A DNA stretch of 64,000 nucleotides from a virus, in IMG/VR virus record IMGVR_UViG_3300021518_000005, positions 1 to 64,000 of that record; one strand, written 5' to 3'. The position numbers and the translations under genes were made by a program. Positions 12,740-42,497 of the stretch are shown here, in pieces (position 1 is the stretch's first letter; the number at the start of each line of letters is the position of its first letter). A model generated the notes under the pieces. It worked only from the letters and a program-made list of their open reading frames with translations, searched no databases and had not been told where the DNA came from.

Positions 12740-13997
12740 TGCCACGACGTTGACCGCCGCGACTTGCTTAGTGGCTATCTCTGTGGTACAATAGAACATA
12801 TGAACGTACAACGCACGATAACGATATGCATTGCTGATGACCCTGACCTGCGGGCAACGCTTGCAGGGTTCCAGGGCATTCAGCAGCGCATCTCTCAGGC
12901 GTGCTACAACGACGGCAGCCCGCTGTCCGCGCTGGCGTTGCATCGTGCGGTGTACGCACAGATCAAAGGCACGATCAGCAGTCAGCTGACCTGTACGGCC
13001 ATCCGGCTGGTTGCCGGAGCGTACGCTAGTGCCAAAGCGAACAAGAAGCCCGCGCAACGCCCGTTTGCGTTCAAGCGGCCTACGGCGCTGTTTCTGGTTG
13101 GCGAGCGCGGGCGCGATGCGCGCTTGTGTGATGATGGCACGCTCTCGATCTGGACGGTCGCAGGGCGCAAGCGCATTGCCTACAGCGTGCCGGATGCCTT
13201 CAAGCAGACGCTTGCCGACGCCGTCGAGATCGACAGTATGACCGTGATCGAACGCGACGGACGCCTGCTTGGTCGCGTGGTTGTCACGCTGCGCGTCCCT
13301 GATCCGAAGGGCATTCATCCGGTTGGGATTGACCTGAACGAAACGAACGCCCTGGTTGCCGTCGATCCTGATGGCACCACCCTGTTCGTGAGCGGGCGGG
13401 CGTTTAAGGTGCGGAACACCCGCACCCGCAAAACCCGCCGCCGTCTTCAAGCACAGCTTGCGACCCACAAGGCACAGAAACACGATACCCGGTCGATCCG
13501 GCGCGTGTTGAAACGGCTTGGTCGCAAACAGCGCAACCGCACGCGCACCTTCTGTCAACAAACCGCTGCCAAGCTGGTTGCCTGGGCGCACACCGACTCG
13601 GTGTTGGTGTTCGAGCGTCTGACACTGCCGCAGACCTCTAAAAAGCTGCGGGTGCGCAAGGGTACCCGCCGACGACTCAGCCAGTGGCAGCGCCGCTTGA
13701 TGCGTCAAAGTGTCACGAACACTGCCGAGCGGCGCGGGCTGCTGGTGGATGATGTCAATCCAGCCTACACCAGCCAGGATTGCTCGCGGTGTGGGTTGCG
13801 TGGTATCCGAAAGCGTCACGCTTTCTCCTGTCCTCACTGTGGGCACGAAGCCCACGCGGATGTGAATGCTGCAATCAACATCCGTCATCGCTATACCGTC
13901 CTACGGGGCGGTGGGCCGCTGTCAACCGGCCCTGAAGCCCTGTCGTCCGTTGCGGACAATGAGGGCAAGCTTTCGTCTTTAGGCGACAGTCGTTGAC
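12740..13997 (+). mobile_element. Non-autonomous IS200/IS605-family element (tnpB only)
   Basis: Clearly more GC-rich than its flanks; subterminal hairpin ends (left gccacgacgttgaccgccgcgacttgc, right gcaagctttcgtctttaggcgacagtcgttgac); no tnpA. The left boundary is uncertain by about 5 nt. Confidence 0.8.
12800..13996 (+). CDS. tnpB: TnpB RNA-guided endonuclease
   Basis: RuvC triad GIDLN / VFERL / HADVNAAINI; Zn ribbon CSRC...CPHC; NPAYTSQ. ATG lies 7 nt after TGGTACAAT (leaderless). Confidence 0.92.
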   Translation: MNVQRTITICIADDPDLRATLAGFQGIQQRISQACYNDGSPLSALALHRAVYAQIKGTISSQLTCTAIRLVAGAYASAKANKKPAQRPFAFKRPTALFLVGERGRDARLCDDGTLSIWTVAGRKRIAYSVPDAFKQTLADAVEIDSMTVIERDGRLLGRVVVTLRVPDPKGIHPVGIDLNETNALVAVDPDGTTLFVSGRAFKVRNTRTRKTRRRLQAQLATHKAQKHDTRSIRRVLKRLGRKQRNRTRTFCQQTAAKLVAWAHTDSVLVFERLTLPQTSKKLRVRKGTRRRLSQWQRRLMRQSVTNTAERRGLLVDDVNPAYTSQDCSRCGLRGIRKRHAFSCPHCGHEAHADVNAAINIRHRYTVLRGGGPLSTGPEALSSVADNEGKLSSLGDSR

Positions 13998-15235
13998 TAC
14001 GCTACTTCCTCGGTGTCTACATAATCCGCTTTATCCTTAATGTAACCCTCTAGGACTCCAAATTCCCAACTTTTTGCTTTGATGAATTGTGTGCCCTGAG
14101 TACTTTCGACACGCAAACAAACACCTTCTCGAATATGACGGCTATCAAGTTCGCTTGAGCCACTGATATGCGAATCGATAATCGTATCGACAATACTCAT
14201 CGTTTCTGTGTCATACACACACAACATGTCAATGTGCGGCACGGTCTGTAATCCAAGTTCTTGACAGCGCTGGTGCATCTGAAAATGAGACAATTCAGTA
14301 CCGTGTTGTGTGATGCGATAGACATACATACGACACGTTCCAGGCTCACAACCATAGGTGTAGCGCATGACCGGCCCATACTGCTCTAGTCCTGCTTTTT
14401 TGGTGTCGCCCTGCTCACCCATGATGAACTTCTCATCTGTCGTATAGCCGACGACCTCAAAATACAGAATCTCACCTGGCTTGAGTGTTATCCCGCTAAC
14501 GACATCGCGACGAAATTGCTCACTGCCATAATATCCGGCCTTGCCGTCTTCTAAGATCGTGCGTCGCGTCCCAATCACATACTGATATGTTTTAGCCTCG
14601 ACAGGGACACCGAGCCGCTGTAGCCAGCGCTCGTACCACTTTAGCGGGCGCTCCACTTCTACTAACCCATAACGCTGCGATGTGCCGTGCAACTTCTCGG
14701 AAACATACACTACGCTACCAGGCTGGATTGCATGCCGCGCATACTTGTACGGCTCTGTTTCGACATGCTCAGGAAAGGAGCTAATCACACGCTTCTGTAC
14801 GCGCTGGTGCTGTGCTTGCAGTGTCGCCGGTGTCATATATTTATTACAAATAGCAACACCCCCAAGACTATCGAGCGTGTCACCTTCTCGTAGCGTTTCG
14901 ATGGCGCTTGTATCAATTTCGGCAGCCGCAAGATACGACAACGGACACCAAAAGCCATCAGATTTGACGCCGCGCAATGACTGCGCTCGTACACGCCGGT
15001 TCTGCTCGAACATGCCACCGGCCTTATTGCCTTGCGCATCGACACGACGTACAAGATCGTTTGCTGCTGCAAATGCCTCCGATAGCTGTCCGTCTGTCGG
15101 AAAGAACAATCCGAGATCACCATCCTCTGCTGTCAATCCTACAACAACTTGATGGCCGTAAGCACTGGCAATTTTCAATCGATCTGCATTAGGATGAGGC
15201 CGCGTTGTAATACGGCACACAATAGCTTTATACAT
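13997..15235 (-). CDS. RNA ligase (DRB0094-like, with N-terminal OB domain)
   Basis: HPNADRL OB-fold start, nucleotidyltransferase motif I EKLHGTS, ILYFEVVG, REGVCL and KAKS motifs. Confidence 0.85.
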   Translation of the reverse strand: MYKAIVCRITTRPHPNADRLKIASAYGHQVVVGLTAEDGDLGLFFPTDGQLSEAFAAANDLVRRVDAQGNKAGGMFEQNRRVRAQSLRGVKSDGFWCPLSYLAAAEIDTSAIETLREGDTLDSLGGVAICNKYMTPATLQAQHQRVQKRVISSFPEHVETEPYKYARHAIQPGSVVYVSEKLHGTSQRYGLVEVERPLKWYERWLQRLGVPVEAKTYQYVIGTRRTILEDGKAGYYGSEQFRRDVVSGITLKPGEILYFEVVGYTTDEKFIMGEQGDTKKAGLEQYGPVMRYTYGCEPGTCRMYVYRITQHGTELSHFQMHQRCQELGLQTVPHIDMLCVYDTETMSIVDTIIDSHISGSSELDSRHIREGVCLRVESTQGTQFIKAKSWEFGVLEGYIKDKADYVDTEEVA

Positions 15236-35431: not shown

Positions 35432-35930
35432 GTTTTTTCTGGAATGCTCAAAAAGGCCCTGAAATAGCCCATTTTGGGCGACTTAAGCCCCGCGAGATGA
35501 AACTTAAGTTTTTCTTTCGGGGCTTTCTTTTGGCTTTGTAGTCATTAAAATCGAGGCTTAAGTTTTTTATTAGGCGACTTAAGTTTTCCATGCGCTTTTC
35601 AAAAACTTAAGTCGCTTGTGGGCAAAAACTTAAGTTTTTGCAGACCATTTCAATCGGGCATAATCGTGTGCAGCAGACAAGAATCTCATGCTTGTACTTG
35701 ACTTGGCAAAAAACAAGTAGGGCAATGACTTGCACACTTGATACGCAATGCAAGTCAAACATTCTACTGGAACACTTGACTTGTTTTTCATCGAGCAATT
35801 CAGGCAAGTCAACTACTCATAAAGGCAAGTACAAAAACAAGTGAGGTGGCAAGTCCGGGCAAATCAAGTAGACAAGTCAAGCCTTGTTTCTTGACTTGCC
35901 AAAACAAGTACTTGACTTGTCTACTTGTCT
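34974..35930. repeat. Dense tripartite array of CAAGT/ACTTG and CTTAAG motifs
   Basis: More than 20 CAAGT/ACTTG copies at about 34980-35290, seven CTTAAG palindromes at about 35425-35640, and about 20 more CAAGT/ACTTG copies at about 35690-35930 (counted by eye). Confidence 0.85.
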
Positions 35931-36252
35931 AACGAGACAAGGCGCGTAACCTGCACAAGCGATATACTTTGTACTCCATGTCGCGCTTGCCTCGATTGCA
36001 ACTTGCACAGCACGCTACCACATTGGCCTCAGTATATCCGTGTCGATTATTCACACGATCAATACCTTGATATACAACGGTGTTGATTTTGTATTGCGGC
36101 TGGCAGTACACGCCAGATGGAGCACAGCCGCAGTAGTGGCACAGCTGCTGAATGAGTGTATCGAACACATCCATATCAAGCTCGAATGACAGATCACGGC
36201 GCTTTGCGTCATACTTGTAACGGCGGAAAAGATGTTTGACGACTGGCAGCAT
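35929..36252 (-). CDS. HNH-like endonuclease
   Basis: CHYCG...GIDRVNN..GY...NVVACCASCN..K. Confidence 0.75.
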   Translation of the reverse strand: MLPVVKHLFRRYKYDAKRRDLSFELDMDVFDTLIQQLCHYCGCAPSGVYCQPQYKINTVVYQGIDRVNNRHGYTEANVVACCASCNRGKRDMEYKVYRLCRLRALSR

Positions 36253-36291
36253 GGTAATTGTCCTTGCTCGATATGTATGTTCCCTGACACA

Positions 36292-36409
36292 ATCTTACCA
36301 TATCGGTAAGATACTTGTCTAGTGACAAAATACTCACATGATCAACCAAAACTCTTTACACTTGGCATTTCCTGAAGAAGTTTGACATTTCTTACCGCTA
36401 TGGTATACT
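36292..36409. promoter_or_regulatory. Divergent operator-bearing promoters
   Basis: Minus strand: CTTACC-N5-GGTAAG at 36294-36310. Plus strand: TTGACA(36382)-16 nt-TATACT(36404) containing CTTACC-N5-GGTATA, upstream of the ncRNA cluster. Confidence 0.75.
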
Positions 36410-36477
36410 GTGGGTGAGCCGAACGCAAGACTAGTCCCGAGGGTGCAGCGAGGTCATACGTTGATTAGTAGGCCCAT

Positions 36478-36567
36478 GGGAGCGCAGTAGGTTTCGATAG
36501 GGCGCGATGAGCACGAAAGCGCACAGCTCCGCTCTAGACGCGAGTGCAACTCTCGCCGCTTCCACCA
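36478..36567 (+). ncRNA. tmRNA-like RNA consisting of the tRNA-like domain only
   Basis: Acceptor stem GGGAGCG/CGCTTCC with G3.U70; encoded ACCA end; stemless D-loop (GGTTTCGA); P2a TAGGGCG/CGCTCTA; GAC linker; T-arm GCGAG-TGCAACT-CTCGC. Confidence 0.75.
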
Positions 36568-36573
36568 GTTAGG

Positions 36574-37007
36574 GCATACTAGGCATGTCTAGGTTAACCG
36601 CTTTGAATGGCACCGTGCCTCTCTGTCATTCAACCTGTATGGAGTAAGCAGGAACAAAGGGATGTAAACGCCTTGCTGTAGGTTCCTTGTGGGCCATGAG
36701 TAGAACGGATAAGACCGCCGTTGGAATGACGGCGCGGGATCGGTAATCCGCACTCGTAATCTCTGCCGATCTGCTGACAAGTGGAGAACTTGTCACTGTA
36801 CAGGTAATGATCGGTGCAGCGCGGTAAAAAAACAGCTATGTGTGCATGTGGGTGAGGCTGTCGGTGTTGGGCCGTAGGGAGTACTATATAACGATAGCGT
36901 TGTATAACCTGATCGTATCCGTCGCTAATCCAACTAGGCGAGGCGCATGCACACACCGCGCATTCACGGCGACACCTGCCAAGCATTCTAGATACTGCAA
37001 GTGGTGC
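36574..37007 (+). ncRNA. Putative large structured ncRNA (~430 nt)
   Basis: No credible ORF; many hairpins plus long-range pairings that close the 5' and 3' ends; lies between the tmRNA-like RNA and a tRNA. Confidence 0.55.
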
Positions 37008-37036
37008 GACACGTAGCGGAGAGACGCTACTCTTGC

Positions 37037-37126
37037 GGGCTTAAAGCGTAGTAGGTAAACTGCGTGCCGACTGATCAGCGGCCCTGTGTAAGACACGGGT
37101 AGAGGGTTCGAGTCCTTCAAAGCCCA
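37037..37126 (+). tRNA. Atypical tRNA-like gene (GAT anticodon, long variable arm)
   Basis: Acceptor GGGCTT/AAGCCC; extended D-stem; anticodon arm GCCG..CTGATCA..CGGC; variable arm CCTGTG/CACGGG; T-arm GAGGG-TTCGAGT-CCTTC. Confidence 0.6.
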
Positions 37127-37169
37127 ACAATATTGTTATTATAAAAATCAAAGGAGTGACTGTATACGT

Positions 37170-37475
37170 ATGGCTGATGTGGTGGCTGCATTTGGGGATT
37201 TTGGTGTTTTTAGCCATGCCGCGCCAAATATGGCCGGTACTGTTCGTGAGCGTGATCTGGAATTTGTCGATGCAACGGTGTCGTTATCGAATGTCTCCCC
37301 GTCAAGTTCGATTGATCTTACTAATCCTGAGCTACTGACTTTCAAGGTTGCCAAAGATGAAGTGTTTGGTACGCTTTCTGCACAGTTGACGGTGCTGCTC
37401 ACGGGAGAGGAACAAAGAGAATTGAAGGCGATTGCAGAACGCATTGAGCGGCGTGTGAAGGCGCTTATCAGGTAA
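37170..37475 (+). CDS. Hypothetical protein
   Basis: AAGGAG RBS upstream; plausible amino-acid composition. Confidence 0.55.
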   Translation: MADVVAAFGDFGVFSHAAPNMAGTVRERDLEFVDATVSLSNVSPSSSIDLTNPELLTFKVAKDEVFGTLSAQLTVLLTGEEQRELKAIAERIERRVKALIR

Positions 37476-37567
37476 CATGTTTCCTCTTTGTTGGGATGGT
37501 TGACGATAACGCTAGCCATCCCAACTATTGAAATAATCCTAGAATATCTCCAAGGAGTTGATGATCT

Positions 37568-39142
37568 CTGAATCGCACTGGGATTGCTGGTGCTGTCGCC
37601 GCCGTTATTGTTACTGTTGTTATTGTTCTCCCGCATGGTTCCTCGACTGATGCGCCTCCGCCTGTATTTGTGACAGCTCACGTCATAACGGCTACAGCAG
37701 AATTGACCACTACACATCACGAAGATCCTACAAACACGCCAGAAGCGCCTACAGCCACCGAAACAGCTACGCTAGAGCCAACACACACCACTGAACCTAC
37801 AATCCCTCCTGGGCCGTCTGAGAAACCTACGGAAGTCGTTACAAGCACTGCTACGACCACGACAACAAATACCGTAGATTCGACAGCAACATCTACGGCT
37901 GCCGCAACTTTTACACCCACGTCAGAAGCCTCTATAACGCCCACAGAAACACCTACAGCGAGCGCCACGGCCACTACGACGCCCACGCCTACGGCGGTTC
38001 CTACAGCCACTCCTGTGGTGTTCCTGGAAACGTTTGACGGATTGCCATCACAACCATTAGCCTTCTCAAGCAGCCAATGGGATATTATGGCGCACAGCCG
38101 TGATCCGTTGTATCGACAAGTTCCTGAGCCAATGGATGCGCAACATGACGGTGCAACATGCGATGTCCATGGCGCGCACACGATCACAACCTACACACAA
38201 ACCGCGTTCATCTGCCGTAATCATCTCATGACGGCTATTAAGGGAACTGACTACGCGATTGTGTACCTTGCGCCTAATGCCATGCTCGATTGGTCGCAAA
38301 ACACAGCTACACTGCGTTTTGACGTTTCAACCATGCGAACGACAAGCCGCGATTGGTGGGATATTTGGATCACGCCATGGGGCGATGTGTTGTCGTATCC
38401 CTCTGATGGATCGTTTCCCGATGGGAATGGCGAGCCGCGCAACGCCATCCACATTCGCATGAATCAGTTCAACGGCAAGACCACGTTTAACGTCAATCAA
38501 GTCGTGAATTATGTCTCATCGCCGGTGCCTGGTTCCATTGTCGGTGGCCGCGTCTACGAGAATGTATTAACACCGGATTATGTGCGGCGCGACACGTTTG
38601 AGCTACGCCTATCGAGCACACACATCTCGTTTTGCATGCCCGACTATACTCACTGTTGGGCTGATAATCTACCGTTGGCTACGTCGCTCGACTGGAATAG
38701 CGGCGTGGTACAGATCGGTCATCACTCCTACAATCCGCTGAAGGGCTGCATCGCGGGGCGTACACCATGTCAGCCAAATACCTGGCATTGGGATAATGTC
38801 CGCATGGAGCCAGCATTGCCATTCCAAATCATTCGCAGCGCGCCGCGTGCCGCATCGCTCACAATTACGAACGACACATTGACACTTGAGCGGCCTGCAC
38901 CAGCAGGCGCTATCGTTCGATTTTTGGCTATCGGGAATGCTATCGAGGTGTCATTCGACGGTGGCAATACATGGCAACCAGCCGTCAAGCGTGAGCAGGA
39001 AAACAATCAGCCGGAACGGTTCAGCTCGTATTGGATGCCGATACCGGAAGGCACCACAGCAATCAAGGTTCGCGGCCAACGTTGGACAAGCAGCAGCGCA
39101 GGTGATTGGTGGGTTCACTCGCTCAGTGTGTGGGCGCGCTAG
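37568..39142 (+). CDS. Secreted or membrane-anchored protein with Thr/Pro linker and beta-rich C-terminal domain
   Basis: Frame is open from CTG 37568, 10 nt after AAGGAG, giving an N-terminal hydrophobic segment (NRTGIAGAVAAVIVTVVIVL); long PT/TA linker; FLETFDG...HWDNV domain. Confidence 0.7.
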   Translation: MNRTGIAGAVAAVIVTVVIVLPHGSSTDAPPPVFVTAHVITATAELTTTHHEDPTNTPEAPTATETATLEPTHTTEPTIPPGPSEKPTEVVTSTATTTTTNTVDSTATSTAAATFTPTSEASITPTETPTASATATTTPTPTAVPTATPVVFLETFDGLPSQPLAFSSSQWDIMAHSRDPLYRQVPEPMDAQHDGATCDVHGAHTITTYTQTAFICRNHLMTAIKGTDYAIVYLAPNAMLDWSQNTATLRFDVSTMRTTSRDWWDIWITPWGDVLSYPSDGSFPDGNGEPRNAIHIRMNQFNGKTTFNVNQVVNYVSSPVPGSIVGGRVYENVLTPDYVRRDTFELRLSSTHISFCMPDYTHCWADNLPLATSLDWNSGVVQIGHHSYNPLKGCIAGRTPCQPNTWHWDNVRMEPALPFQIIRSAPRAASLTITNDTLTLERPAPAGAIVRFLAIGNAIEVSFDGGNTWQPAVKREQENNQPERFSSYWMPIPEGTTAIKVRGQRWTSSSAGDWWVHSLSVWAR

Positions 39143-39143
39143 T

Positions 39144-39382
<239 letters not shown>

Positions 39383-41312: not shown

Positions 41313-41392
41313 CAATTGCTTCGACCTGAACACAGTATAAATCAAACAACTTGATTGTTGAATGATAAATACCTGATATTTAGGTGATAATT
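41313..41392. repeat. Direct repeat copy 2 (promoter cassette)
   Basis: Near-identical to 40023-40102. Confidence 0.85.
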
Positions 41393-42497
41393 ACTCAGAT
41401 GTGTCCTGCAACTTCCTAGCCACATCCTCCAATGCGGCGCGCTCATCAGCGCTGTACGAATGGATGTACACGCGCTCCGTGATGCTGGTAGTGCTATGGC
41501 CGAGTACATCACGCGCCACTGTCGAGGCATACCCGCTTTGGGCGATAAGCGATGCTACCGCATGGCGAAGATCATGTAATCGGATCGATTGCGGCAGCCC
41601 GATTCGCTTCAAGTCGGCCTTGAACGACCGCCAGAGATTATGCGGGTTGTACGGTGTGCCAACTTCAGATGGAAATACAAGTTGATGATCTTTCCATCCT
41701 GGTGCATCGCGCTCCTCATTTTGCACAGCCCTATGCACCTCAAGTGTTTGTACAAGCCACGGCGCAAGCGGAAGCGTTCTAACACCGCTCTCGGTTTTTG
41801 CATCAGCAATATGCAGCGTGCCAGCTTGCATATCAACATCGGCCCACTTCAGCGCGATTAATTCGCCACGTCGAAGGCCGAGTGATGCGCCAATGACATA
41901 GAGTGCATAGCGCCGTGTACCGCGTGCGCCATCGAGTAGTTGTCGGATATGCTCAATGGATACCGGCTGCACTTTGTACTTTCTTGGTTTTGGCACATCA
42001 ACATGTTCAGCCACGTTCCGTTGCACCATTTCGAGACGTACACCGTCGTTGAGTGCTCGACTCAAAACACCATGCGCGTATTCGATGGTACGAGTACTCA
42101 AGAGTGCGTCACGTTTCTTAGAACGCTTGTCACGCAGTTCTGAGAGCCAATGCTGTATATCTTGTGGCCGGAGCTTTACAAGTTTGATATGGCCGATATG
42201 CGGCTCGATATGCAGTCGAGACATATCACGGTAGCTTTCGTAGGTTCGCGCCTTGCCTGGTTTGACCGTATGCTCTAGCCAATACGCCATGTACTGCGTG
42301 ACTGTCATTTTATTGTCGATTGGCTCAGAGCCACGATTAAGTTCAGCCAAGATATTCGCTTGCCAGGTTGCAACTTCCTTGCGTGTCTTGCCGTATTTCC
42401 ACTTGCGTTTCCCATTGCCAAGTGATACAGCTGCGTACCATGTCCCGTCTTTGCGCTGCCCAATAGTGCCTTCATTTTGACCGCGTTTCTTAGGCAT
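41391..42497 (-). CDS. int: Tyrosine integrase
   Basis: N-terminal RGQNEGTI arm-binding domain; GLRRGE, KT, HDLRH, LGHS and catalytic Tyr (TERVY). Confidence 0.95.
   Translation of the reverse strand: MPKKRGQNEGTIGQRKDGTWYAAVSLGNGKRKWKYGKTRKEVATWQANILAELNRGSEPIDNKMTVTQYMAYWLEHTVKPGKARTYESYRDMSRLHIEPHIGHIKLVKLRPQDIQHWLSELRDKRSKKRDALLSTRTIEYAHGVLSRALNDGVRLEMVQRNVAEHVDVPKPRKYKVQPVSIEHIRQLLDGARGTRRYALYVIGASLGLRRGELIALKWADVDMQAGTLHIADAKTESGVRTLPLAPWLVQTLEVHRAVQNEERDAPGWKDHQLVFPSEVGTPYNPHNLWRSFKADLKRIGLPQSIRLHDLRHAVASLIAQSGYASTVARDVLGHSTTSITERVYIHSYSADERAALEDVARKLQDTSE

What the first reader, a model, noticed from the sequence alone, without database searches (positions are those of the whole stretch)
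36478..36567. 90-nt mini-tmRNA: tRNA-like domain with no mRNA domain
Seen: the tmRNA TLD hallmarks are all present (7-bp acceptor with the G3.U70 alanine identity pair, A discriminator plus encoded CCA, stemless D-loop ending GGTTTCGA, P2a helix, GAC linker, T-arm). P2 is capped by a short hairpin instead of the pseudoknots and tag ORF. Known: the TLD is what SmpB, AlaRS and EF-Tu bind; TLD-only tmRNAs occur in some protist mitochondria. Inference: a phage-encoded SmpB decoy that inhibits trans-translation, a tag-free ribosome-rescue RNA, or a decoy for host ribotoxins.
Basis: partly seen in the sequence, partly recalled or inferred. Interest (0 to 1): 0.82.

Follow-up and report, generated by a model that had tools for sequence, protein, structure and literature searches.

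The report
Phage tag-less mini-tmRNA gene
This phage carries a real 90-base gene for only the alanine-accepting, tRNA-like end of the bacterial ribosome-rescue RNA (tmRNA); the type is already known from mycobacteriophage DS6A and is common in uncultivated phages, so this is a divergent new member that probably interferes with the host's rescue-and-tagging system.

Summary
Window 36478-36567 (+) is a well-formed tRNA-like-domain-only tmRNA. It has a 7-bp acceptor stem with G3·U70, A73 and an encoded CCA. It also has an unpaired GGTTTCGA loop, a 7-bp P2a helix capped by 25 nt, a GAC linker and a 5-bp T-arm.

The Rfam tmRNA model scores it 49.2 bits against a cut-off of 47. The general tRNA model finds nothing there.

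A covariance model built from 33 other phage mini-tmRNAs, without this one, hits exactly this stretch at 57.2 bits, E 2e-12. It scores the published DS6A "TLD only" tmRNA at 58.8 bits and ordinary tRNAs at 41 bits or less.

The kind is not new. DS6A is in the tmRNA literature (PMC4131195, PMC11915505), and a similar molecule inhibits E. coli tmRNA. This scan has also found such genes before on other DNA (423 notes in at least 325 genomes).

The family is large: 88 distinct sequences here, with strong covariation and G3·U70 in 88 of 88.

This copy is a singleton variant. Its T-loop is unique (TGCAACT), its P2 is longer, and its host is probably in the Chloroflexales.

Function was not tested here, and no RNA data were available.

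The parts
36382..36409 (+). Sigma-70-type promoter-like site: TTGACA, 16-nt spacer, TATACT, with TG before the -10. It would start a transcript about 60 nt upstream of the RNA's mature 5' end.
   Evidence: 11 of 12 hexamer matches, the best site in 35800-37800. This is a consensus match only; it does not show transcription.
36478..36567 (+). The whole 90-nt TLD-only (tag-less) mini-tmRNA gene.
   Evidence: RF00023 tmRNA model: 49.2 bits, cut-off 47, model positions 1-374. Family model R1: 57.2 bits, E 2.1e-12. RF00005 tRNA model: no match at E<=10.
36478..36484 (+). 5' strand of the acceptor stem. G1, G2 and G3 form G1-C72, G2-C71 and G3·U70.
   Evidence: These three pairs are invariant in 88 of 88 distinct family members.
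36485..36497 (+). Unpaired D-loop analogue ending GGTTTCGA. There is no D-stem.
   Evidence: The candidate host tmRNAs carry the same GGTTTCGA block at the same place.
36498..36504 (+). P2a helix, 5' strand.
   Evidence: 7 of 7 pairs with 36530-36536. This helix shows changes on both sides at 7 of 7 pairs across the family.
36505..36529 (+). 25-nt cap of P2. It stands in place of the pseudoknots and the tag reading frame.
   Evidence: There is no room for a tag frame. An 8-codon frame that runs into the helix is not shared by the family.
36530..36536 (+). P2a helix, 3' strand.
36537..36539 (+). GAC linker between P2a and the T-arm.
   Evidence: GAC occurs in 87 of 88 family members, but my search pattern required it in most of them.
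36540..36556 (+). T-arm: a 5-bp stem and the 7-nt loop TGCAACT.
   Evidence: The loop's second base is G only here (T 79, C 8, G 1 of 88). The same 7-nt loop is the consensus of Rfam Tymo_tRNA-like.
36557..36567 (+). 3' strand of the acceptor stem, then discriminator A and an encoded CCA.

Best explanation
Window 36478-36567 is a phage gene for a tmRNA reduced to its tRNA-like domain. It is the same kind as the 'TLD only' tmRNA of mycobacteriophage DS6A.

Inferred mechanism, none of it tested here:
1. It is transcribed from the strong promoter about 70 nt upstream.
2. RNase P trims the 5' end and the 3' end is trimmed to the encoded CCA.
3. It is recognised through G3·U70 and A73 by the host alanyl-tRNA synthetase.
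4. It is bound at its elbow by host SmpB; the phage encodes no SmpB of its own.
5. It competes with the host's 365-nt tmRNA for SmpB, and probably for EF-Tu and stalled ribosomes. Because it has no resume codon, tag frame or stop codon, SsrA tagging and normal rescue are reduced during infection.

I put the identity at about 0.9 and the inhibitory, competitive function at about 0.55.
For: Shown here:
- All helices are intact, with no non-standard pair.
- The Rfam tmRNA model gives 49.2 bits, over its cut-off. DS6A gets 43.2 bits in the same kind of search. The best ordinary tRNA in two candidate host genomes gets 39.2 bits.
- Model R1 was built from 33 IMG/VR mini-tmRNAs without the window or DS6A. 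It gives the window 57.2 bits and DS6A 58.8. tRNAs score 35.6 or less and 41.1 or less in 151 Chloroflexales-order genomes.
- The tRNA model RF00005 gives no match.
- Family covariation: 97.1% of cells are paired, 16 of 19 pairs change on both sides, and the covariation score is 0.797 against 0.122 or less for slid controls.
- The P2a helix, which played no part in my selection, covaries at 7 of 7 pairs.
- A promoter lies upstream.
- No SmpB or RF-1-domain gene was found in the 83-kb record.
- Both candidate host genomes have SmpB and a standard tmRNA.

From papers, passages only: DS6A carries little more than the TLD, and a similar molecule, chargeable or not, strongly inhibits tmRNA in E. 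coli, perhaps by titrating SmpB (PMC4131195; PMC11915505).
Against: - There are no expression or processing data.
- No close homologue of this particular variant was found, so its own conservation cannot be judged.
- It ranks 89th of 92 family hits by score.
- It is the only member with G at the second T-loop position (1 of 88). That could weaken the D-loop/T-loop contact.
- Its folding energy is not better than shuffles.
- ARAGORN and default Rfam miss it.
- G1-C72, G2-C71 and G3·U70 are invariant in 88 of 88. A pure SmpB sponge would not need this, since the published inhibition did not require charging. Titration alone may therefore not be the whole mechanism.
- The inhibition experiment is known to me only second-hand. 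Mao et al. 2009 is not held.
Confidence: 0.6

Rival explanations
1. It is a productive, tag-free rescue RNA. Charged with alanine and delivered by SmpB and EF-Tu, it accepts the stalled nascent chain. The chain then escapes the degradation tag, and another factor releases it. This would help the phage keep ribosomes free without having its proteins tagged.
For: The alanine identity pairs are invariant in 88 of 88 distinct members, while positions 4-7 of the same stem covary freely. That points to selection on charging. CDS-less mitochondrial and plastid tmRNAs are conserved together with SmpB (PMC11915505 passage). Full-length phage tmRNAs exist and can be highly expressed (PMC7474061 passage).
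Against: There is no stop codon or resume codon, so release needs another factor. No RF-1-domain (ArfB-like) gene is in the phage record. The two candidate host MAGs show only two long RF-1-domain frames of 359 and 364 aa; these genomes are incomplete, so this is weak. The only experiment in print reports inhibition, not rescue.
Confidence: 0.2
2. It is another tRNA-like RNA and not a tmRNA derivative. It could be an alanine tRNA that lost its D-stem, or a decoy or handle for enzymes that act on tRNA acceptor ends.
For: An earlier follow-up in this scan reclassified a 70-nt look-alike as a D-stem-less tRNA-Ala (e1-6042632). Ordinary tRNAs with a G3·U70 stem reach 35-41 bits with the same models. 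25 of 103 family members lie within 500 nt of tRNA genes.
Against: There is no 5-bp stem with a 7-nt anticodon loop; the middle helix is 7 bp plus 4 bp with a 13-nt loop. RF00005 gives no match at E<=10, although it finds the record's two other tRNA-like genes. ARAGORN calls no tRNA there. The GGTTTCGA loop followed directly by the P2a helix is the 5' signature of the candidate hosts' tmRNA. The window scores 16-20 bits above any tRNA.
Confidence: 0.08
3. It is a decaying ssrA remnant or an attachment-site relic picked up from a host tmRNA gene, with no function.
For: The phage is temperate; an integrase lies at 41391-42497. tmRNA genes are common integration sites (PMC10865867 passage). The T-loop is aberrant and the element is a singleton.
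Against: An attachment relic holds only the 3' part of the gene, whereas here both ends are present and pair perfectly. All 19 modelled pairs are standard. It has its own strong promoter. The likely attP is elsewhere, a tRNA-Gly 3' half at 39262-39311. Its stems differ from those of the candidate host tmRNA by paired changes, not by decay.
Confidence: 0.05

Closest known systems
'TLD only' (CDS-less, standard-form) tmRNA of Mycobacterium phage DS6A (JN698994 28478-28560; tmRNA Website tmID 11587; Mao et al. 2009 as cited in PMC4131195 and PMC11915505)
   Same: Both are phage-encoded and 83-90 nt long. Both have an acceptor stem with G3·U70, a stemless D-loop analogue, a P2a helix capped by a short hairpin and a T-arm, and no tag frame or pseudoknots. 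Their scores with model R1 are nearly equal, 58.8 and 57.2 bits. The T-stem sequence is the same in both.
   Different: DS6A does not encode CCA, and its D-loop analogue reads GGTGGTCGA. It has a canonical T-loop, the window has TGCAACT. The window's P2 cap is longer. The hosts differ: Mycobacterium for DS6A, probably Chloroflexales here. There is no detectable DNA similarity.
Standard one-piece bacterial tmRNA (Rfam RF00023), for example the 365-nt genes of the two candidate host MAGs (L034, L035)
   Same: The 5' and 3' ends have the same architecture: a G3·U70 acceptor, a GGTTTCGA loop running into P2a, a GAC linker, a T-arm and ACCA.
   Different: About 275 nt are missing, namely the resume codon, the tag frame and four pseudoknots. 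The acceptor positions 4-7 and the T-stem differ from the host's by paired changes, so this is not a recent copy of that host gene.
CDS-less mitochondrial (jakobid) and plastid tmRNAs (Rfam RF02544; PMC11915505)
   Same: They are tmRNAs without a tag reading frame, kept together with SmpB.
   Different: The organellar forms are mostly permuted and are the organelle's own rescue RNA. This one is in standard gene order and is encoded by a virus alongside a full host tmRNA. No mt-tmRNA hit was listed for 36300-36750 even at E<=10, although families of one clan may be hidden under the tmRNA hit.
Tymovirus tRNA-like 3' structure (Rfam RF00233)
   Same: The 7-nt T-loop TGCAACT is identical to that family's consensus loop, and both end in ACCA. 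A tRNA mimic can therefore carry this loop.
   Different: The score is only 15.5 bits against a cut-off of 40. Tymovirus elements have a pseudoknotted acceptor and valine identity and belong to a plant RNA virus. The two are not related.

Membership tests
TLD-only (CDS-less, standard-form) tmRNA, DS6A type | 7-bp acceptor stem with G1-C72, G2-C71, G3·U70 and discriminator A73 | tested here: met
   The same three pairs occur in 88 of 88 distinct family members.
TLD-only (CDS-less, standard-form) tmRNA, DS6A type | D-arm replaced by an unpaired loop of the GGNUUCGA type that runs straight into helix P2a | tested here: met
   The candidate host tmRNAs have the same block. The alignment to model R1 has high posterior probability.
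TLD-only (CDS-less, standard-form) tmRNA, DS6A type | P2a helix closed by a short cap, with no pseudoknots, resume codon or tag frame | tested here: met
   A 7-bp helix and a 25-nt cap. Family caps are 2-38 nt.
TLD-only (CDS-less, standard-form) tmRNA, DS6A type | T-arm with a 5-bp stem and a 7-nt loop of the T-[T/C]-C-R-A type | tested here: inconclusive
   The stem and the loop length are met. The loop's second base is G, found in 1 of 88. The same loop works in tymovirus tRNA mimics.
TLD-only (CDS-less, standard-form) tmRNA, DS6A type | Recognised by a covariance model of the family that was built without it | tested here: met
   R1 gives 57.2 bits, E 2.1e-12. DS6A scores 58.8. tRNAs score 41.1 bits or less.
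TLD-only (CDS-less, standard-form) tmRNA, DS6A type | Alanylation by AlaRS, binding of SmpB, and inhibition of SsrA tagging | not testable with these tools
   This needs bench work. The published test concerns a similar molecule in E. coli.
TLD-only (CDS-less, standard-form) tmRNA, DS6A type | Expressed and processed to a stable small RNA | not testable with these tools
   Only a promoter-like site is seen.
tmRNA (Rfam RF00023) | Score at or above the curated gathering threshold of 47 bits | tested here: inconclusive
   49.2 bits when scored as a candidate stretch. Not reported by cmscan of the whole window at gathering threshold. Only 7.8 bits as a truncated hit in a 451-nt scan.
tRNA (Rfam RF00005), including D-stem-less tRNA-Ala | Anticodon stem-loop and a fit to the tRNA cloverleaf model | tested here: not met
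   No match at E<=10, while the record's two other tRNA-like genes are found. ARAGORN makes no call. There is no 7-nt anticodon loop.
Permuted (two-piece) tmRNA (Rfam RF04321) | The 3' acceptor piece is encoded before the 5' coding piece | tested here: not met
   The gene order is standard. RF04321 gives 9.9 bits against a cut-off of 47.

The most novel reading that the evidence does not exclude
Phage mini-tmRNAs may not be passive SmpB sponges. They may be selected to be charged with alanine and to enter stalled ribosomes.

Across 88 distinct sequences the three alanine-identity pairs never change, while the rest of the same stem covaries freely. The published inhibition in E. coli did not need charging.

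If charging matters, these RNAs could add one untagged alanine and so spare phage proteins from SsrA-directed proteolysis. Alternatively they could trap rescue complexes as a host shut-off.

The window's copy has a unique G in the T-loop. It would then be a natural variant with an altered elbow, for example one that escapes a host factor or modification enzyme that reads the T-loop.
Probability: 0.3. Interest if true: 0.7.

Novelty: new member of a known kind. Interest (0 to 1): 0.4.

Why it matters
Trans-translation is the main ribosome-rescue and protein-tagging system of bacteria. A phage gene that tampers with it is a compact host-takeover tool.

The principle has been in print since DS6A. 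The tmRNA database paper lists only 9 'standard, no CDS' sequences in all.

One narrow pattern search here returned 103 well-formed copies, 74 of them unique, from uncultivated phages. A second pattern added 15 more. Standard tools miss them: ARAGORN overlaps 2 of 103.

The window adds a divergent member from a probable Chloroflexales phage, with an unusual T-loop.

The family-wide invariance of the alanine identity pairs makes 'does charging matter?' a directly testable question.

Tried and rejected
- Relatives of this phage. blastn of 35500-38500 and of the 90-nt element against 50,697 phage records found no match. The search for related loci with the FtsK-like protein and with the 490-aa neighbour found no relative in viral contigs. 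A pattern requiring this element's own T-loop found 0 other stretches. Model R1 over 151 Chloroflexales-order genomes found no close homologue. It found a 133-nt form at 59.5 bits, three 131-132-nt relatives at 42-44 bits, tRNAs, and 3' ends of standard tmRNAs.
- Expression. No RNA holder is listed for 36300-37300. The four holders are sediment-metagenome DNA contigs from two studies, and one sample may be the source of this DNA.
- Laid contigs. These are 99% or more identical, and the second study's contigs leave most of the element uncovered. They say nothing about variation or transcription.
- Tag frame. An 8-codon frame that begins with an alanine codon inside the P2 cap and ends at a stop inside the P2a 3' strand was rejected.
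- Conserved protein partner. Among 1041 ORFs within 3 kb of 103 family members, no family recurs in more than 3 of 43 RNA lineages.
- Cultured phages. A family member used as a blastn query hit Stenotrophomonas, Xanthomonas, Alcaligenes and Acinetobacter phages, but only over the 3' third. Two loci checked with R1 scored 24.8 and 31.7 bits, so they are not this kind.
- Papers. Mao et al. 2009 is not held, so I rely on passages in two papers that cite it. No paper describing a widespread phage TLD-only family turned up. Supplementary Table S2 of PMC11915505, the breakdown of the 79 phage and 9 'standard, no CDS' sequences, may hold more such forms.
- Host. The assignment is tentative. It rests on 50 nt of identity between the attP-like tRNA-Gly half and 2 of 30 genome hits.

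Full report
**What is there.** The window is the first 64 kb of an 83,227-base IMG/VR virus record, estimated 85% complete. It carries phage genes:
- ribonucleotide reductase, a DnaB-like helicase, a primase and a sliding clamp;
- collagen-like tail fibres and an RNA ligase;
- an FtsK-like ATPase and a tyrosine integrase.

- a 7-bp acceptor stem with G3·U70;
- 13 unpaired bases ending GGTTTCGA;
- a 7-bp helix (P2a) capped by 25 nt;
- GAC, then a 5-bp T-stem with a 7-nt loop;
- the 3' acceptor strand, A, then CCA.

RNAfold recovers these helices, but the energy is no better than that of shuffles, z = -0.05. A promoter-like site lies at 36382-36409: TTGACA, 16 nt, TATACT with an upstream TG, 11 of 12 matches. 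No convincing + strand ORF lies between 36253 and 37147.

**Is it a tmRNA end?** Standard tools do not call it:
- ARAGORN finds nothing there.
- Rfam cmscan of the whole window at gathering threshold reports nothing there.
- A 451-nt scan gives only weak partial hits.

Scored as a candidate stretch, however, the Rfam tmRNA model aligns end to end (positions 1-374) at exactly 36478-36567, with 49.2 bits against a cut-off of 47.

I calibrated that figure in two ways:
- The published DS6A 'TLD only' tmRNA, which the same search places at JN698994 28478-28560, gets 43.2 bits.
- In two candidate host genomes the true 365-nt tmRNAs get about 176 bits. The best ordinary tRNA, 76 nt with a G3·U70 stem, gets 39.2 bits.

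The general tRNA model finds the record's two other tRNA-like genes but nothing at this element, even at E<=10.

**A family, found independently of this element.** I searched IMG/VR with a pattern that fixes only unpaired motifs: GGTTTCGA, a gap of 20-50 nt, GAC, a T-loop skeleton and ACCA. It places no demand on base pairing. It matched 117 stretches. The results were as follows:
- 102 of 117 have a perfect 7-bp acceptor stem and a perfect 5-bp T-stem.
- 103 of 117 pass at 6 of 7 and 4 of 5 pairs or better.
- 14 of 117 fail.
- All 103 that pass have G3·U70.
- They make 74 unique sequences of 69-98 nt.

By my own arithmetic, random sequence would give 7 of 7 pairs at the best of nine offsets about 1% of the time.

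The middle helix was not part of the pattern or of my filter. It has 6 or more contiguous pairs in 60 of 74 sequences, and the window has 7. A second pattern with GGATTCGA matched 22 stretches, and 15 of those 22 loci gave family hits.

**Model test.** From 33 of the 74 sequences (those with a 4-nt spacer, minus one 98-nt outlier) I built covariance model R1. Neither the window nor DS6A was in it.
- On the window it gives one significant hit, 36478-36567: 57.2 bits, E 2.1e-12, full length, no non-standard pair. The next hit scores 10.8 bits.
- DS6A gets 58.8 bits. tRNAs in the test loci get 23.3-35.6 bits. The host's full tmRNA gets only a partial alignment of 26.6-28.2 bits.
- In 151 Chloroflexales-order genomes the 76-nt tRNAs reach at most 41.1 bits.
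- Over 98 sources the 92 hits at E<=1e-7 score 54.5-91.2 bits. The window ranks 89th.

**Covariation.**
- On the 33-sequence MAFFT alignment, 97.0% of cells pair. 15 of 19 pairs change on both sides. The covariation score is 0.720 against 0.078-0.130 when partners are slid, and 0 of 500 shuffles reach it.
- On the 92-hit alignment (88 distinct rows, fitted to the model and therefore leaning towards it), 97.1% of cells pair. 16 of 19 pairs change on both sides. The score is 0.797 against 0.122 or less.

Helices 1 and 3 were partly selected by my filter; helix 2 was not, and it covaries at 7 of 7 pairs.

G1-C72, G2-C71 and G3·U70 are invariant in 88 of 88. The motifs fixed by my patterns cannot be counted as conservation.

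**How this copy differs.**
- Its T-loop reads TGCAACT. The second base is T in 79, C in 8 and G in 1 of 88 distinct members. No other IMG/VR stretch has this loop in this setting. The same 7-nt loop is the consensus T-loop of Rfam's tymovirus tRNA-like element, so a working tRNA mimic can carry it.
- Its P2 cap of 25 nt is longer than most; family caps are 2-38 nt.
- The base of P2a is U-A where most members have C-G. Across the family this pair is C-G in 75, U-A in 11 and U-G in 2.

**Host and origin.** A degenerate tRNA-like stretch at 39238-39309 has a good 3' half and a broken 5' half, and it lies 2 kb from the integrase. Its 3' part matches tRNA-Gly(UCC) genes exactly over 33 nt in 30 genome stretches. 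The match extends to 50 nt (39262-39311) in only two, a Chloroflexaceae MAG and a Chloroflexales MAG. I read this as attP and the host as probably Chloroflexales; this is tentative.

Those two genomes have a standard 365-nt tmRNA and SmpB. The host tmRNA shares the GGTTTCGA-to-P2a layout. It differs from the phage RNA at acceptor positions 4-7 and in the T-stem, and the differences are paired changes. The phage gene is therefore not a recent copy or a decaying piece of that host gene.

The phage record has no SmpB and no RF-1-domain gene.

**Context in other phages.**
- ARAGORN overlaps only 2 of 103 members, both as a 324-nt tmRNA call.
- 33 of 103 loci hold at least one tRNA gene, and 25 members lie within 500 nt of one.
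- No neighbouring protein family recurs in more than 3 of 43 RNA lineages.

The gene therefore stands alone.

**What is known.** All of the following rests on passages only.
- PMC4131195 lists 'Mycobacterium phage DS6A (TLD only)'. It says a similar molecule, chargeable or not, strongly inhibits tmRNA, perhaps by titrating SmpB.
- PMC11915505 repeats this. It counts 79 phage sequences and 9 'standard, no CDS' sequences among 97,179, and it notes CDS-less mitochondrial and plastid forms.
- PMC5648845 suggests a phage tmRNA may counteract host tagging.

I could not read Mao et al. 2009, and supplements are closed. I found no paper on a widespread phage TLD-only family.

Within this scan the same kind has been noted many times on other DNA: 423 notes in at least 325 genomes. 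Follow-ups reached the same reading. One look-alike was reclassified as a D-stem-less tRNA-Ala. I tested that rival here and it fails.

**Mechanism.**
- Shown: the anatomy, the family membership and the family's covariation.
- Inferred: processing, alanylation, SmpB binding and competition with the host tmRNA.

The invariant alanine-identity pairs suggest that charging is under selection, which a pure sponge model does not need. I therefore keep a tag-free or ribosome-entering role as the main rival. No RNA data exist for this stretch (see Tried and rejected).

**Verdict.** This is a real RNA gene. It is a divergent new member of a known but under-annotated kind. Its function rests on analogy.

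Noticed in passing
window 37036-37126 (+): An odd 90-nt tRNA-like gene with a long variable arm, at the end of the same non-coding stretch. ARAGORN calls it tRNA-Ile(GAU). RF00005 gives 19.7 bits, below its cut-off. Rfam's best family is tRNA-Sec at 23.5 bits against a cut-off of 47. A class-II shape with an Ile anticodon is unusual.
   Followed up: partly
window 36568-37036 (+): A 469-nt stretch between the mini-tmRNA and the tRNA-like gene with no Rfam match at E<=5. It folds somewhat better than shuffles, z = -1.93, with 5 of 100 shuffles as good. A 118-aa minus-strand ORF (36630-36986) has no Pfam hit.
   Followed up: partly
window 39238-39311 (+) and 41391-42497 (-): A likely attP. It is a tRNA-Gly(UCC) 3' half with a degenerate 5' half, identical over 50 nt to tRNA-Gly genes of two Chloroflexales MAGs, and lies 2 kb from a tyrosine integrase.
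   Followed up: partly
window 13997-15235 (-): An RNA ligase gene (phrog_968, E 9e-56). It may point to repair of cleaved tRNA-type RNAs during infection.
   Followed up: no
L105 1562-1638 and 5108-5183 (IMG/VR locus): One phage contig carries two different mini-tmRNA genes about 3.5 kb apart, scoring 87.3 and 59.1 bits with R1.
   Followed up: no
L159 1501-1633 (genome G061, Chloroflexales order); also L160, L161: A 131-133-nt tmRNA-like gene in bacterial genomes, scoring 59.5, 44 and 42 bits with R1. It has a much longer P2 region than the phage forms but is far shorter than a standard tmRNA. I did not check whether these genomes also have a full tmRNA.
   Followed up: no
L171 (Stenotrophomonas phage Marzo, MZ326868 70994-71368): The record's 375-nt 'tmRNA' feature overlaps two annotated tRNA genes. 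R1 finds only a tmRNA-like 3' end there, at 24.8 bits. The annotation looks like an over-extended automatic call.
   Followed up: partly
L072 5905-6228 and L115 11650-11973: In the only 2 of 103 loci where ARAGORN overlaps a mini-tmRNA, it reports a 324-nt tmRNA that shares the mini-tmRNA's 3' end. I did not resolve whether these are longer genes or false extensions.
   Followed up: no
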